NCBI RefSeq assembly: GCF_016903815.1
Contig: NZ_CP069973.1
Source of the DNA: Escherichia coli
Lineage (GTDB): Bacteria > Pseudomonadota > Gammaproteobacteria > Enterobacterales > Enterobacteriaceae
Reading direction: 5' to 3' (one strand)
DNA length: 64,000 nucleotides
Position 1 is the stretch's first letter. Each line of letters starts with the position of its first letter. The position numbers were made by a program. Positions 3,001 to 12,000 of this stretch are shown here, in pieces.

Positions 3001-6000
3001 TCGTTCGTTGGGGATGCAGCCAGATCCTCGATCCTGATAGTCCTTACATTGCCCTTTCTTGTGCTGGCGGGAACTGGATCACCGCCGAAACCGAAGCGCC
3101 AGAAGAAGCCATTTCCGACCTTGCATGGAAAAAACACCAGATGCCAGCATGGCATTTAATTACCGCCGATGCTCAGGGTATTACTCTGGTGAATATTGGC
3201 GTGGGACCGTCCAATGCTAAAACCATCTGCGATCATCTGGCAGTGCTACGCCCGGATGTCTGGTTGATGATTGGTCACTGTGGCGGATTACGTGAAAGTC
3301 AGGCCATTGGCGATTATGTACTTGCACACGCTTATTTACGCGATGACCACGTTCTTGATGCGGTTCTGCCGCCCGATATTCCTATTCCGAGCATTGCTGA
3401 AGTGCAACGTGCGCTTTATGACGCCACCAAGCTGGTGAGTGGCAGGCCCGGTGAGGAAGTCAAACAGCGGCTACGTACAGGTACTGTGGTAACCACAGAT
3501 GACAGGAACTGGGAATTACGTTACTCAGCTTCTGCACTTCGTTTTAACTTAAGCCGGGCCGTAGCAATTGATATGGAAAGTGCAACCATTGCCGCGCAAG
3601 GATATCGTTTCCGCGTGCCATACGGGACACTACTGTGTGTTTCAGATAAACCGTTGCATGGCGAGATTAAACTTCCCGGTCAGGCTAACCGTTTTTATGA
3701 AGGTGCTATTTCCGAACACCTGCAAATTGGCATTCGGGCGATCGATTTGCTGCGCGCAGAAGGCGACCGACTGCATTCGCGTAAATTACGAACCTTTAAT
3801 GAGCCGCCGTTCCGATAATAAGTTCTGAACCTTCTCATCAGAAATAGATGTGAAGGATTAAGCAAGACATCTGGCAAATAGCCTGCAATCAACGCGGGCT
3901 GTTTGCTTCCTTGGGCAGATGCGAGTTTCATTATCGTCTTAATGATTTCCGCATATTAAAAGCATGTATGCTTTCAAAATATAATTATAAAAAATCCCGC
4001 CAACAACATTAGTTTTTATAAAACAAAATATAAGATTATGGCTTTAGAATATTTTTATTTCTAATAGACGAGATTTTTCCTGTTATGATATAATATGCTG
4101 ATTTAACACATGTTAACGATTTACCAGTAATGTAAATAAATTTTCGAGGAGATCATTCCAGTGGGACGTAAATGGGCCAATATTGTTGCTAAAAAAACGG
4201 CTAAAGACGGTGCAACGTCTAAAATTTATGCAAAATTCGGTGTAGAAATCTATGCTGCTGCTAAACAAGGTGAACCCGATCCAGAATTAAACACATCTTT
4301 AAAATTCGTTATTGAACGTGCAAAGCAGGCACAAGTTCCAAAGCACGTTATTGATAAAGCAATTGATAAAGCCAAAGGCGGCGGAGATGAAACGTTCGTG
4401 CAGGGCCGTTATGAAGGCTTTGGTCCTAATGGCTCAATGATTATCGCCGAGACATTGACTTCAAATGTTAACCGTACGATTGCTAACGTTCGCACAATTT
4501 TCAATAAAAAAGGCGGCAATATCGGAGCGGCAGGTTCTGTCAGCTATATGTTTGACAATACGGGTGTGATTGTATTTAAAGGATCAGACCCTGACCATAT
4601 TTTTGAAATTTTACTTGAAGCTGAAGTTGATGTTCGTGATGTGACTGAAGAAGAAGGTAACATTGTTATTTATACCGAACCTACTGACCTTCATAAAGGA
4701 ATCGCGGCTCTAAAAGCAGCTGGAATCACTGAGTTCTCAACAACAGAATTAGAAATGATTGCGCAATCTGAAGTTGAGCTTTCCCCAGAAGATTTAGAAA
4801 TCTTTGAAGGGCTTGTTGATGCCCTTGAAGATGACGACGATGTACAAAAAGTTTATCATAACGTCGCAAATCTCTAATTATATTTTAAAGAAATCTGTCT
4901 TTACGGCAGATTTCTTTAATCTCATATAACCCTTATAAAAAATATAATGTTCAACTCGTCATATTGATTATAAAAAAACCCCGCTCCCAGAGAAATAATA
5001 TTTATTAAAATTCCAGTTCTTCTTTTTCTGATTACAGAAGGCAAAGTGGCAATTACGCATAGTTTCCCGATAAAGACGCGATAGCGACATCCCGCATAAG
5101 GCATTTTTCTCTTTATCTTTGTACGGTACTTCATGGAACAGAGTTTTTGACCTTGCGAATCGTGATGTCTGTTGGGGGGCAACTTGCTCACTGAAGCGTG
5201 AGACTCGATTAAGCGCACGAAACACAGAAATCAAAAAACCCGGTCACTTTTTTACAAGGTAACCGGGTAAAAATAATTTTTATTTTTTAACTGTTTTGAG
5301 ACTCATAGAGATGTCTCAAAACTAAAATTTGGCTCCTCTGACTGGACTCGAACCAGTGACATACGGATTAACAGTCCGCCGTTCTACCGACTGAACTACA
5401 GAGGAATCGTGAGAACGAGGCGAATATTAGCGATGCCCACCCACAATGTCAAAGCCTGTTTTTTAAATTTGAAATCGTTTGCTGAAATAATCTGCATTTT
5501 GTCGTTTATTCCGACACAACTGGCTTTTTTTCACACTTTTGCGGCTCGGGTCGAGGGTATTTCCATAGCCAACGTCCAGTAACCATTCGCCAGTAAAACA
5601 GCACGGCCCGCACAGCCCAGTCGGCAAACATTCCCATCCAGACACCAACCACACCCCAGCCAAGCATGATTCCCAGCACATAACCGACTACAACCCGACA
5701 ACCCCACATGCTCAACATCGAAACCCACATGGCGTAACGGGCATCACGAGCACCTTTAAATCCAGCGGGTAGCACCCATGAGGCGGACCAAATAGGCATA
5801 AATAAAGCATTTAGCCAAATCAGAATCACAACGACATGTTTAACCTGTGGATCCTGGGTGTAAAACGATGCCATAAGCCCGGCAAAGGGAGCCGTTAGCC
5901 AGGCGATGGCCGTTAATCCAAGAGTGGACAGCCAGAACACATGCCGCAACTGAATCTCTGCTTGCGCTATCTGCCCTACCCCCAACCTTCGGCCTGTAAT

Positions 6001-9000: not shown

Positions 9001-12000
9001 TGGGCCTGTTCACACTGACGTAAAATGGCCCGCGCATGGGTATAGAGAATTTTTCCGGCGTCTGTTGGTGTAACGCCCCGCTTTGTACGGATCAAAAGTT
9101 GTTGATTTAACTCACCTTCCAGTGTGGCAACCTGCTGGCTGAGCGCTGGTTGTGCGATATGCAATACTTCAGCAGCCTGGGTCAGGCTACCAATATCTAC
9201 AATTTTTACGAAGTATTTCAGGCGTCTGAAGTTCATGTTGCCTCCGGTTTTTAAGAATCGGCCCAAGTGCCGCCATTACTTACAACCAGATTGCAAGATG
9301 CTTGCCAGTTTTATTTTGGTGTTGATGTACAAGCTAACCAACTGTCAAATAAGAGATTATGATAGATTCGTCATTTGCTCCTTTAATCAGCTGTCGCGTT
9401 CCCCTGCCCTATAAAAGGAGGGTATGCACCACGATGGTTCATTACCCAATAAGATTGAAAGCTCACCACTTTGTTGAAATTGACAGCAAACAAACAAAAA
9501 AATGCATTTCACCCTTTGACATCACCATGCACTGCCATTAATATGCGCCCCGTTCACACGATTCCTCTGTAGTTCAGTCGGTAGAACGGCGGACTGTTAA
9601 TCCGTATGTCACTGGTTCGAGTCCAGTCAGAGGAGCCAAATTCAAAAAAGCCTGCTTTCTAGCAGGCTTTTTGCTTTCTAATTACCAACGCTCTTAAAAC
9701 ATCTGTCTTGAACCAGAACTAATTTGCACAGGCATTCCCGATCGACGTTGCAACGCAGCATTTGCGCGATTTACATCAACTTCTTGCCCGTTGATAAACG
9801 CCCGCAAAGATGGGGTTACCGGCAATGGCACTTTTCGGTCAGACTCATATTCTGCACGATTGCGCGACAACGGCTCATGAACTTCCAGCCAGTTCGAGCC
9901 ATCTGGTTCAGTGGTGTATTTTACTGGCTGGTCGATAATTTGCACACGCGTCCCAACAGGAACATTATCAAACAGATATTTGATATCGTCATTGCGCAGA
10001 CGAATACAGCCCTGACTTACCCGGAGCCCAATACCAAAATTGGCATTGGTACCATGGATGGCATACAACCTGCCAATATAAATCGCGTACAGCCCCATGG
10101 GATTATCGGGGCCCGCAGGAACAAATGCGGGCAAACTCTCCCCTCGTTTCGCATATTCGCGCCGAGTGTTCGGCGTTGGCGTCCAGGTTGGAGCTTCTTG
10201 TTTACGTTCAACGGTAGTCACCCAGTTACGCGGGGTTTCTCGCCCAGCCTGGCCGATACCAATAGGAAAGACTTCCACAGTATTACTGTCTGGTGGGTAG
10301 TAATAAAGACGCATCTCAGCGACGTTAACAACAATCCCTTTACGAACAGTGTCGGGCAAAATCAGTTGCTGCGGAATGGTGAGTTGCGAGCCAGACTTCG
10401 GCAAAAAAACATCAGCGCCCGGGTTCGCTTCCAGCATGTTACTTAACCCTTGCCCGTATTGTGCGGCAAAAGTCTCCAGCGGCTGGGTATTGTGATCAGG
10501 AACAGTTACAGTAAACGACTGCCCCACTAAACGGCTACCCTCTGGAGGTAATGGATAAGTTACCGCCAGGCTAGTATGGCTGGCAAAAAGCAGAGCAAAT
10601 GAGCAAAGAATATTTACACGACGCATCATGTCCCTTTCCTATGTCGCGAAAGCTATCCGTTAAGTATAGCTTTTATCAGACTTTTCGTTTTTAACTGTTC
10701 AAATCAGAAGTCGTATTCCCCGGTAGAACAATATTACTGGCAGCAAGTTCGCCCATGTTGTTGTATATCGCACAGGCAGCTTCGATGATGGGCATCGCCA
10801 GAGCTGCGCCACTCCCCTCACCTAAACGCATCTCCATATTGAGATAAGGCTCCAGCCCCAAATGCGAGAGCGCTATACGCGCGCCTTTTTCTGCCGACAG
10901 GTGAGAAGGAATGAGATACGGTTTGATCGCAGGAGACATCTGGCAGGCTGCGAGCGCAGCAGCATAAGAAAGAAATCCATCCAGCAACACGGGTAAACCG
11001 CAGGAAGCAGCACCTAACATCACTCCAGCTATTCCGACCAAATCAAATCCACCCACTTTTGCCAGGACATCAACACCATCCTGCGGATTTGGTTGATTCA
11101 ACGTAATCGCCCGACGCACAACATCAATTTTATTAGCCAGTTTATCTGTCGGCAGGTTTGCGCCAATCCCAACCACTTCTTCAGGATCCCGGCCAGTGAT
11201 TGTGCTGACTATTGCTGCTGCCGGTGTCGTGTTTGCCATCCCCAGTTCACCTACACCAAACAGCGTGACACCGTTTTTTGCCAGCTCCTGCGTATAACAT
11301 ATGACGTCCAAAAGCAACTTTTCAGCCTGACGGCGACTCATTGCCGGAGCTGAAGCAATATTGCCGCTACCTCGTGCGACACGCATGTTGATAAGCCCGG
11401 GGATAGGCTCAGCAGTATCAATACCAACATCAATTACGTGGACGTTAGCGCCCGCTTGTTCTGCCAGCACACACACGCCGGTTGTTCCACGGGTCATATT
11501 TTCAGCCTGTATGGCTGTCACTTCTTTTGGAGAAATAGCGACCCCTTCCTCCCAGACGCCGTGATCGGCACACATAACCAGTACCGCTTTTTTGCCCACA
11601 TGCGGTATGCCATTCAACCCCGGCATTCCTGCCAGTTGTATGGCAAGCACCTCCAGCTTTCCCAGGCTACCAACAGGTTTGAGTAACCCGTCAATATGCC
11701 GTTGTGCACGCGACATAGCGGTAGAATCGATGGCTGGGATCGTATTCAGTAAATCGGCAAGTATTTGCATCTCACGTCTCTTTATAGCAGTGCCAGCAGG
11801 AAGACCAGTTCACCAAGCTCTATGGCTGCTCCCAGCGTATCGCCCGTTTGCCCGCCCAGCGTACGTTTGAGAAGCTGACCGAGGATGAAAATCGCCACCA
11901 TCGTCACCACCATAGCAGCCACACCATGCATACCCGGCAATAATACGGCAGCAAAAATAGCGGCTAAGCCGAGTGTGACGCAGGTTTGTCGCCCATCAAT

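What the first reader, a model, noticed from the sequence alone, without database searches (positions are those of the whole stretch)
5330..9638. Three identical tRNA-Asn genes within 4.3 kb, two in direct and one in inverted orientation
The 76-nt tRNA-Asn sequence is present three times exactly (5330-5405 minus; 7154-7229 plus; 9563-9638 plus), flanking yeeO and cbl-nac. tRNA-Asn loci are classic integration sites for genomic islands, and the repeats are perfect substrates for deletion or inversion of the intervening genes. The island here begins only ~3.5 kb beyond the third copy, but no attachment-site duplicate of the tRNA 3' end was seen at the island edge.
Basis: partly seen in the sequence, partly recalled or inferred. 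Interest (0 to 1): 0.3.

Follow-up and report, generated by a model that had tools for sequence, protein, structure and literature searches.

The report
E. coli asnW, asnU, asnV genes
These are the well-known asnW, asnU and asnV asparagine-tRNA genes of E. coli, all three without an inserted island in this window; related strains do carry the predicted inversions and deletion between them, the main inversion is already published, and the nearby island is not attached to any of them.

Summary
Three 76-nt tRNA-Asn(GUU) genes lie at 5330-5405 (-), 7154-7229 (+) and 9563-9638 (+) and are identical. They are asnW, asnU and asnV of E. coli, in the same order as in K-12. Each has its own promoter-like site and terminator hairpin. 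All three are unoccupied: no integrase, no copy of the tRNA 3' end elsewhere in the window, and colinear with K-12. The fourth copy, asnT, lies outside the window and carries the yersiniabactin island (HPI) in the nearest relative.

The recombination idea holds. Among about 5,424 complete E. coli genomes:
- 266 have the asnW-asnV inversion junction, including Nissle 1917.
- 34 have the asnW-asnU inversion junction (yeeO flipped).
- 35 have a yeeO|asn|ldtA junction; the checked cases have lost cbl-nac.
- 1 has an asnT-asnW inversion.

The asnW-asnV inversion is already published (PMC8209727, PMC6458436).

The island link fails. The 28.5-kb island (13364-41909) sits where another E. coli has pocR and the pdu operon. 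It is bounded by a remnant annotated as a cobalamin-biosynthesis pseudogene and by a PduV fragment, and it shares both ends with K-12 prophage CP4-44. It has no tRNA-derived repeat.

Verdict: real, ordinary, already known.

The parts
5330..5405 (-). asnW, tRNA-Asn(GUU)
   Evidence: ARAGORN; Rfam tRNA 72.6 bits; same position and flanks as K-12 asnW b1984
5424..5452 (-). promoter-like site of asnW (TTGACA, 17 nt, TAATAT)
   Evidence: consensus scan, 10 of 12 matches; the TTGACA and TAATAT/TAAGAT hexamers line up in all four asn genes. Consensus match only; function inferred.
5236..5322 (-). two hairpins downstream of asnW; the second is followed by a run of U (terminator-like)
   Evidence: RNA fold -33.6 kcal/mol, z = -6.6
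5506..6993 (-). yeeO (MATE exporter), the segment between asnW and asnU
   Evidence: RefSeq annotation of an identical genome; found inverted in 34 genomes
7110..7137 (+). promoter-like site of asnU (TTGACA, 16 nt, TAAGAT)
   Evidence: consensus scan; alignment
7154..7229 (+). asnU, tRNA-Asn(GUU)
7237..7265 (+). asnU terminator hairpin followed by a U run
   Evidence: RNA fold -19.5 kcal/mol, z = -4.6; 77% similar to the asnV terminator
7267..9236 (-). cbl and nac (LysR-type regulators), the segment between the direct repeats asnU and asnV
   Evidence: annotation; cleanly absent in AH20K059 and 2016C-3878
9516..9544 (+). promoter-like site of asnV (TTGACA, 17 nt, TAATAT)
   Evidence: consensus scan; alignment
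9563..9638 (+). asnV, tRNA-Asn(GUU); unoccupied integration site
   Evidence: ldtA begins 55 nt downstream, as in K-12
9645..9672 (+). asnV terminator hairpin
   Evidence: terminator scan; RNA fold -18 kcal/mol, z = -5.6
9694..13067 (-). ldtA, cobT, cobS, cobU: core genes that separate asnV from the island
   Evidence: annotation; colinear with K-12 and other E. coli
13219..13362 (-). remnant annotated as a cobalamin-biosynthesis pseudogene (probably cbiP); left limit of the island
   Evidence: RefSeq pseudogene annotation; homology with the pdu-bearing strain ends at 13363; Pfam finds no family in the 47-aa fragment
13364..41909 (.). 28.5-kb island at the CP4-44 locus, with no integrase and not linked to a tRNA
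   Evidence: replaces pocR-pduA..pduV of strain 2016C-3878; both ends shared with K-12 CP4-44; gene content; no direct repeats of 20 nt or more
41910..42092 (+). C-terminal fragment of PduV (yoeF in K-12); right limit of the island
   Evidence: Pfam PF10662, E = 5.2e-13, profile positions 88-142 of 143; homology with the pdu-bearing strain resumes at 41910

Best explanation
The three repeats are asnW, asnU and asnV, three of the four identical tRNA-Asn(GUU) genes of E. coli. Each is a separate single-gene transcription unit with its own sigma-70-type promoter-like site and its own terminator hairpin. The sequence outside the tRNA has diverged. The 76-nt tRNA itself is invariant, presumably through purifying selection and possibly gene conversion (inferred). 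The copies matter to the chromosome in two further ways. First, the tRNA 3' end is the chromosomal attachment site for P4-type tyrosine integrases of HPI, the pks island and other islands. In this window all three sites are empty. Second, the 76-104 nt of identity is enough for homologous recombination. Recombination between the inverted pairs (asnW with asnU or asnV) flips the segment between them. Recombination between the direct pair (asnU with asnV) deletes cbl-nac and one tRNA copy. Because the crossover falls inside the tRNA, every gene stays intact and each tRNA keeps a promoter and a terminator. The 28.5-kb island further downstream is a separate feature: a variant of the K-12 CP4-44 locus that stands where pocR-pdu stands in some E. 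coli.
For: Identity and synteny:
- ARAGORN and Rfam call all three as tRNA-Asn, and the three are identical at 76 of 76 positions.
- Window 2-13461 aligns as one 99.0% block with K-12, where these genes are annotated asnW, asnU and asnV.

Transcription units:
- Each gene has a promoter-like TTGACA/TAATAT pair (TAAGAT for asnU) and a stable downstream hairpin.

Invariance:
- Every tRNA-Asn copy in the 21 loci fetched from different E. coli backgrounds matches the 76-mer exactly, while the flanks differ.

Empty sites in the window:
- No integrase is annotated next to any copy.
- No further copy of the tRNA 3' end exists in 64 kb.

Sites used elsewhere:
- pks, HPI and other integrase-bearing islands.

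Recombination products in nature:
- 266 genomes have the asnW-asnV inversion junction, 34 the asnW-asnU inversion junction, 35 the yeeO|asn|ldtA junction and 1 the asnT-asnW inversion junction.
- All four gene orders that inversions can produce were seen: native; yeeO flipped; whole segment flipped; and the double-inversion order.
- yeeO inversions occur in genomes with no integrase island annotated at asnW, asnU or asnV, which fits integrase-independent homologous recombination.

Literature:
- The asnW-asnV inversion was detected and PCR-validated within UTI89 cultures (PMC6458436).
- It was described for pks-positive B2 strains (PMC8209727).
Against: - RecA dependence was not tested, so the mechanism is inferred from structure.
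- The asnW-asnV inversion is almost always found together with an integrase island at the third tRNA. 266 genomes have the yeeN|asn|nac junction, but only one (SE15) has the island-free yeeO|asn|ldtA partner junction. Neutral homologous recombination alone does not predict this. It could reflect clonal descent, selection or integrase involvement.
- Genome counts are not counts of independent events.
- The 35 yeeO|asn|ldtA hits were not all inspected. Two were clean deletions. One (SL112) is a different deletion that leaves a cbl fragment and is not tRNA-mediated.
- Promoters and terminators are consensus or folding predictions only.
Confidence: 0.9

Rival explanations
1. The 28.5-kb island at 13364-41909 was delivered by integration into one of these tRNA-Asn genes, most plausibly asnV, and the attachment site has since decayed or been displaced.
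For: Islands with P4-type integrases do integrate at asnV in other E. coli. The right-hand module of the island (GTPase, DUF932, antirestriction, yeeS, yeeT, cbeA, cbtA, yeeW) is typical, from general knowledge, of tRNA-integrated CP4-type islands.
Against: - No integrase gene is annotated in the island.
- No match to the tRNA-Asn 3' end exists apart from one 3-mismatch hit at 31006, and that search expects 0.23 chance matches.
- There are no direct repeats of 20 nt or more at the edges.
- The core genes ldtA-cobTSU lie between asnV and the island and are colinear with K-12 and with island-free or pdu-bearing strains.
- The breakpoints fall inside a cobalamin-biosynthesis pseudogene remnant and inside pduV.
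Confidence: 0.03
2. The inversions between the asn genes, especially asnW-asnV, are catalysed or triggered by island integrases acting on the tRNA 3'-end attachment sites, or arise while an island is being acquired. They are not spontaneous RecA-dependent recombination.
For: - At least 230 of the 266 asnW-asnV-inverted genomes have a disrupted tRNA-ldtA junction. All six inspected (Nissle, HH45, HH97, JE86-ST05, KL53 and, for comparison, TC24) carry an integrase-bearing island at the third tRNA.
- The combination recurs in at least four different allele backgrounds.
- PMC8209727 also proposes that pks insertion was accompanied by the inversion.
Against: - The final structure is the same under either mechanism, so structure cannot decide.
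- asnW-asnU inversions occur in genomes with no integrase island at asnW, asnU or asnV.
- The clonal spread of pks-positive B2 lineages inflates the association.
- In UTI89 the inversion appeared in control cultures as well as in cells overexpressing FimB or FimX.
- In this window's lineage the only nearby asn-type integrase (HPI, at asnT) is frameshifted.
Confidence: 0.2
3. The three copies are identical because they are recent duplicates, not old paralogues kept identical.
For: Perfect identity over 76 nt, and short shared flanks of 4-28 nt.
Against: - Beyond those few shared bases the flanks are unrelated apart from the promoter hexamers and hairpin shape.
- The same three genes in the same context are present in nearly all of 5,424 E. 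coli genomes: 86-95% have each native junction intact.
- The 76-mer is invariant across divergent backgrounds whose flanks differ by 2-5%.
Confidence: 0.02

Closest known systems
E. coli K-12 asnW (b1984), asnU (b1986) and asnV (b1989), with asnT (b1977) as the fourth copy
   Same: Identical 76-nt sequence, same order and orientation, and same neighbours: yeeN, yeeO, cbl, nac, ldtA.
   Different: Nothing material. The flanking DNA is 99.0% identical. asnT lies outside the window and carries HPI in the nearest relative, unlike in K-12.
[quoted passage not shown] 2021, PMC8209727; Russell et al. 2019, PMC6458436)
   Same: It is the same 4309-bp segment as the finding (5330-9638). The inverted form is present in Nissle 1917 and 265 other complete genomes.
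   Different: - The window has the native, K-12-like orientation.
- This survey also found variants I did not see in the two papers read: inversion of yeeO alone, the double-inversion order, a tRNA-mediated cbl-nac deletion and one asnT-asnW inversion.
- It found the inverted order with a non-pks island (JE86-ST05). [quoted passage not shown]
tRNA-Asn-integrated islands: HPI at asnT, the pks island, and ICE-type elements (ICEEc1/ICEKp1)
   Same: They use the same attachment site, the 3' end of this tRNA. Examples at these very genes in other E. coli are.
   Different: No such element occupies asnW, asnU or asnV in the window.
K-12 cryptic prophage CP4-44 (cobU to yoeF/tmaR locus)
   Same: The window's island has the same location, the same left end (window 13458-14342, 99.7%) and the same right end from yeeS onward (39464-48161, 98.9%).
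   Different: The cargo differs. It has no flu or yeeR. Instead it has decayed sugar-kinase, amidotransferase and transporter genes, IS100, and a dynamin-family/RdcB/patatin cluster. K-12 also has IS5 and IS2 insertions that the window lacks.

Membership tests
tRNA-Asn(GUU) genes asnW, asnU and asnV of E. coli | Cloverleaf tRNA with anticodon GTT | tested here: met
   ARAGORN; Rfam RF00005, 72.6 bits against a gathering score of 29
tRNA-Asn(GUU) genes asnW, asnU and asnV of E. coli | Sequence identity and conserved gene order with the K-12 genes | tested here: met
   Exact 76-mer in K-12 at asnT, asnW, asnU and asnV; one colinear 13.5-kb alignment at 99.0%; K-12 annotation
tRNA-Asn(GUU) genes asnW, asnU and asnV of E. 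coli | Independent transcription units (own promoter and terminator) | tested here: inconclusive
   Promoter-like hexamers and stable hairpins at each copy. These are predictions only; the region holds no more promoter-like sites than shuffled sequence does (8 found against 6.8 expected).
tRNA-Asn(GUU) genes asnW, asnU and asnV of E. coli | Expressed and charged with asparagine | not testable with these tools
   Needs tRNA sequencing or northern blots
tRNA-integrated genomic island occupying asnW, asnU or asnV in this window | Tyrosine integrase gene next to the tRNA 3' end | tested here: not met
   The neighbours on the 3' side are the yeeN intergenic region, cbl and ldtA, as in K-12
tRNA-integrated genomic island occupying asnW, asnU or asnV in this window | Direct repeat of the tRNA 3' end at the far border | tested here: not met
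   The 16-nt and 25-nt 3'-end patterns, with up to 3 mismatches, match only the three genes plus one chance-level hit
The island at 13364-41909 as a tRNA-Asn-linked island | Border next to a tRNA gene or a tRNA-derived repeat | tested here: not met
   The borders lie in a cobalamin-biosynthesis pseudogene remnant and in a pduV fragment. There are no tRNA or tmRNA genes other than the three asn genes and no direct repeats.
Repeat-mediated rearrangement substrates (inversion and deletion between dispersed repeats) | Recombinant junctions with the crossover inside the repeat exist in related genomes | tested here: met
   Junction queries built for each predicted product are found intact in 266, 34, 35 and 1 genomes; gene orders confirmed
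Repeat-mediated rearrangement substrates (inversion and deletion between dispersed repeats) | Dependence on RecA and homologous recombination | not testable with these tools
   Needs a genetic experiment

The most novel reading that the evidence does not exclude
The asn-tRNA trio may be more than a passive recombination substrate. Acquisition or presence of an integrase-bearing island at the tRNA next to ldtA may promote, or select for, inversion of the whole asnW-asnV segment, for example by integrase-catalysed exchange between the occupied site and the inverted empty site at asnW. That would explain why the full inversion is almost never seen without an island (266 genomes against 1), while the shorter yeeO inversion occurs freely in island-free genomes. 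The idea of a coupling is already raised in PMC8209727. Only a demonstrated mechanism and its generality beyond pks would be new.
Probability: 0.2. Interest if true: 0.4.

Novelty: already known. Interest (0 to 1): 0.15.

Why it matters
It matters little beyond confirmation. The locus is a textbook example of multi-copy tRNA genes that double as island integration sites and recombination substrates, and it lies next to the clinically relevant HPI and pks islands. For annotation, the useful points are these:
- The three sites in this genome are empty.
- The neighbouring island is a CP4-44-type variant standing where pocR-pdu stands in other strains, not a tRNA-linked island.
- Gene order in this 4.3-kb segment varies between strains, so it should not be assumed in comparative or PCR-based typing of HPI or pks insertion sites.

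Tried and rejected
- **Copy of the tRNA 3' end:** I searched the whole window for the 16-nt and 25-nt patterns with up to 3 mismatches. Only the three genes matched, plus one 3-mismatch hit at 31006, where 0.23 chance matches are expected. That hit was rejected as chance.
- **Repeats at the island edges:** there are no direct repeats of 20 nt or more. The only pair is a 162-nt inverted repeat of IS66-family fragments.
- **cbiP identity of the left remnant:** Pfam found no family in the 47-aa fragment at 13219-13362, so this rests on the RefSeq pseudogene annotation and on synteny with strain 2016C-3878.
- **Island-free asnW-asnV inversion:** I looked for the yeeO3'|asn|ldtA junction. Only SE15 has it, and its structure is more complex than a simple inversion.
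- **SL112:** I considered whether it shows an ancestral empty site for the island. Rejected, because it lacks sequence (13255-13363) that the window shares with the pdu-bearing strain, so it is more likely a secondary deletion.
- **Defence-system scan:** PADLOC on nine island proteins gave only weak hits.
- **Ou et al. 2006 (PMC1326021):** the paper is cited for the CFT073 inversion but is not held in the library.
- **Not tried:** the predicted asnT-asnU and asnT-asnV deletion junctions were built but not searched.
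Full report
**1.

ARAGORN finds exactly three tRNA genes in the window. All are tRNA-Asn with anticodon GTT, at 5330-5405 (-), 7154-7229 (+) and 9563-9638 (+). Rfam's tRNA model scores each at 72.6 bits. The three 76-nt sequences are identical at every position. A 25-nt 3'-end pattern expected 0.00 times by chance occurs three times.

The repeats extend slightly beyond the tRNA:
- asnU and asnV share 84 nt at 100%, plus a 77%-similar terminator hairpin.
- asnW and asnV share 104 nt at 97%.
- asnW and asnU share 85 nt at 100%.

**2. 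What the genes are**

The window is E. coli chromosome. Positions 4000-14000 are 100% identical to strain 7/2 and many other genomes. Across the whole window, strain 7/2 differs by one substitution and one insertion-sequence insertion.

Window 2-13461 aligns as a single 99.0% block with K-12 MG1655. There the three genes are annotated asnW (b1984), asnU (b1986) and asnV (b1989). They have the same neighbours: yeeN, yeeO, cbl, nac and ldtA-cobT-cobS-cobU.

The fourth identical copy, asnT, lies outside the window. In strain 7/2 it is 34 kb upstream of the window start. It carries the yersiniabactin island (HPI) with a frameshifted integrase and no right-hand repeat.

**3. Anatomy of each gene**

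- **Promoter.** Each gene has a sigma-70-like site 18-26 nt upstream: TTGACA, 16-17 nt, then TAATAT (TAAGAT for asnU).
- **Terminator.** Each has a stable hairpin just downstream, with z-scores of -4.6 to -6.6.
- **Flanks.** Outside these elements the flanks are unrelated.
- **Invariance.** Every asn copy in the loci fetched from diverse E. coli matches the 76-mer exactly.

I infer four old, separately transcribed paralogues kept identical by selection on the tRNA, perhaps with help from gene conversion. Transcription itself was not tested.

**4. The integration sites are empty here but used elsewhere**

In the window no integrase adjoins any copy, and the spacing to the neighbouring genes is as in K-12. 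No further copy of the tRNA 3' end exists in 64 kb.

In other complete E. coli genomes the same sites are occupied:

| Site | Occupant |
|---|---|
| third tRNA (next to ldtA) | pks island with a P4-type integrase |
| asnV | HPI with an intact integrase |
| asnV | PTS-sugar islands |
| asnW, asnV or third tRNA | other integrase-bearing islands |

Among about 5,424 genomes, the native junctions are intact as follows:

| Native junction | Genomes intact | Share |
|---|---|---|
| yeeN\|asnW\|yeeO | 4,969 | 92% |
| yeeO\|asnU\|cbl | 5,179 | 95% |
| nac\|asnV\|ldtA | 4,662 | 86% |

**5. Rearrangements between the copies exist in nature**

For each predicted product I built a 1,476-nt junction: 700 nt of one flank, the tRNA, and 700 nt of the other flank. 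I searched each against 5,426 complete E. coli genomes. In a genome with the native order the two halves lie too far apart, or on opposite strands, to be joined into one match. A match covering 80% or more therefore marks a real junction.

| Junction | Meaning | Genomes |
|---|---|---|
| yeeN\|asn\|nac | asnW-asnV inversion | 266 |
| yeeN\|asn\|yeeO 5' end | asnW-asnU inversion | 34 |
| yeeO 5' end\|asn\|ldtA | asnU-asnV deletion (or double inversion without an island) | 35 |
| yeeO 3' end\|asn\|ldtA | full inversion with no island | 1 (SE15) |
| mtfA\|asnT\|yeeN reversed | asnT-asnW inversion | 1 (ET5) |

Annotated records confirm the gene orders:
- **Whole segment flipped:** Nissle 1917, HH45, HH97 and JE86-ST05.
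- **yeeO alone flipped:** TC24, PigCaeca_1, PSJ-36 and AH65.
- **Double-inversion order** (nac-cbl flipped and moved, yeeO in its native orientation): KL53.
- **Clean loss of cbl-nac and one tRNA:** AH20K059 and 2016C-3878.
- **asnT-asnW inversion:** ET5.

All four gene orders that inversions among three copies in -,+,+ orientation can produce are therefore observed.

The rearranged genomes span junction identities of about 96% to 99.9% to the window. They also carry different protein alleles. This points to recurrent events rather than a single one. Genome counts are still not event counts.

**6. Mechanism**

This step is inferred. Crossovers within 76-104 nt of identity explain every product and leave all genes intact.

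Three of the yeeO-inverted genomes have no integrase island annotated at asnW, asnU or asnV. That fits integrase-independent homologous recombination. An earlier study detected the asnW-asnV inversion, and validated it by PCR, within UTI89 cultures including controls (PMC6458436).

One pattern is not explained by neutral recombination. The full asnW-asnV inversion almost always coexists with an integrase island at the tRNA next to ldtA (266 genomes against one island-free case). Clonal spread of pks-positive B2 lineages accounts for much of this. However, the combination recurs in several backgrounds:
- HH45 carries the window's own yeeN, yeeO, cbl and nac alleles.
- HH97 has a different allele set.
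- JE86-ST05 carries a non-pks island.

PMC8209727 already proposes that pks insertion was accompanied by the inversion. Integrase involvement or selection remains possible. The structures cannot decide, because both routes give the same product.

**7. The downstream island is unrelated to the tRNAs**

Compared with strain 2016C-3878, the order there is cobU, a hypothetical ORF at the position of the window's cobalamin-biosynthesis pseudogene remnant, a cobalamin riboswitch, pocR, pduF, pduA to pduV, then tmaR. Homology with the window stops at 13363 and resumes at 41910.

Window 41910-42092 encodes the C-terminal part of PduV (Pfam PF10662, E = 5.2e-13). So the 28.5-kb island stands where pocR-pdu stands in that strain.

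Both ends of the island are shared with the K-12 cryptic prophage CP4-44, but the cargo differs. It has:
- no integrase annotated;
- no direct repeats at its edges;
- four core genes between it and asnV.

The island boundaries are unrelated to any tRNA-derived repeat. Rearrangement variants between the copies, however, do exist.

**8. Comparison with what is known, and verdict**

The genes are the K-12 asn tRNA genes. Their use as integration sites by HPI and pks is established. The inversion of this exact 4309-bp segment is published (PMC8209727, PMC6458436).

The extra variants found here are modest additions to a known picture. They are the yeeO-only inversion, the double-inversion order, the tRNA-mediated cbl-nac deletion, the asnT-asnW inversion, and the inverted order with a non-pks island.

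- **Novelty:** already known.
- **Interest:** 0.15.

Noticed in passing
window 61094-62401: An IS3-family insertion sequence lies inside wzzB, the O-antigen chain-length determinant. It has two overlapping minus-strand ORFs and an Rfam ALIL frameshift pseudoknot at 61952-62068. It is absent from the otherwise near-identical strain 7/2, and a 5-bp target duplication flanks it. wzzB is therefore probably inactivated in this genome.
   Followed up: partly
window 14851-15012 and 41677-41838: A 162-nt inverted repeat (88% complementary) of IS66-family transposase fragments lies near the two ends of the island. K-12 has only the right-hand copy (yoeD).
   Followed up: partly
window 32211-36576: The island carries a cluster of a dynamin-family protein, an RdcB-family protein and a patatin-like phospholipase, preceded by a YeeP-like GTPase (31121-31993). 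PADLOC gives only weak hits (LeoBC 7e-8 and 9e-5; phospholipase effector 1e-4). The function is unknown; it may be a defence module.
   Followed up: partly
window 40731-41104: The cbtA toxin gene is annotated as frameshifted while its antitoxin partner cbeA (40274-40642) is intact. Several cargo genes at 15118-18124 (PfkB kinase, amidotransferase, DMT transporter) are also pseudogenes, so the island is decaying.
   Followed up: no
L008 (E. coli SE15, NC_013654.1 1968513-1983988): SE15 has the asnW-asnV segment inverted with no island at the third tRNA. It also keeps a second copy of asnW plus about 1 kb of the yeeO 3' end at the original place. This is an inversion with duplication, with one endpoint in the tRNA and the other inside yeeO.
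   Followed up: partly
L017 (E. coli SL112, NZ_CP043486.1 2142189-2151941): In SL112 the cobU-tmaR interval is empty: window 13254 joins directly to 41918. cbl-nac is also removed by a deletion that leaves a 150-nt cbl fragment between two asn genes, so that deletion is not tRNA-mediated. The strain may be laboratory-derived.
   Followed up: partly
L012 (NZ_CM125663.1) and L020 (NZ_AP027553.1): HPI with an intact integrase sits at asnV in strain 2022S01-140-18. In LR-58-1 it sits at the tRNA flanked by the yeeO 3' end. HPI is therefore not always fixed at asnT in E. coli.
   Followed up: no
(survey of complete E. coli genomes): The full asnW-asnV inversion junction occurs in 266 genomes, but its island-free partner junction occurs in only one. 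By contrast, the shorter asnW-asnU inversion is found in island-free genomes. The association with island occupancy is unexplained; shared ancestry may account for part of it.
   Followed up: partly
window 50370-50444 (-) and 53183-53306 (+): Rfam matches to the enterobacterial sRNA STnc240 (68 bits) and to the his operon leader (132 bits). Both are ordinary features of this region.
   Followed up: no
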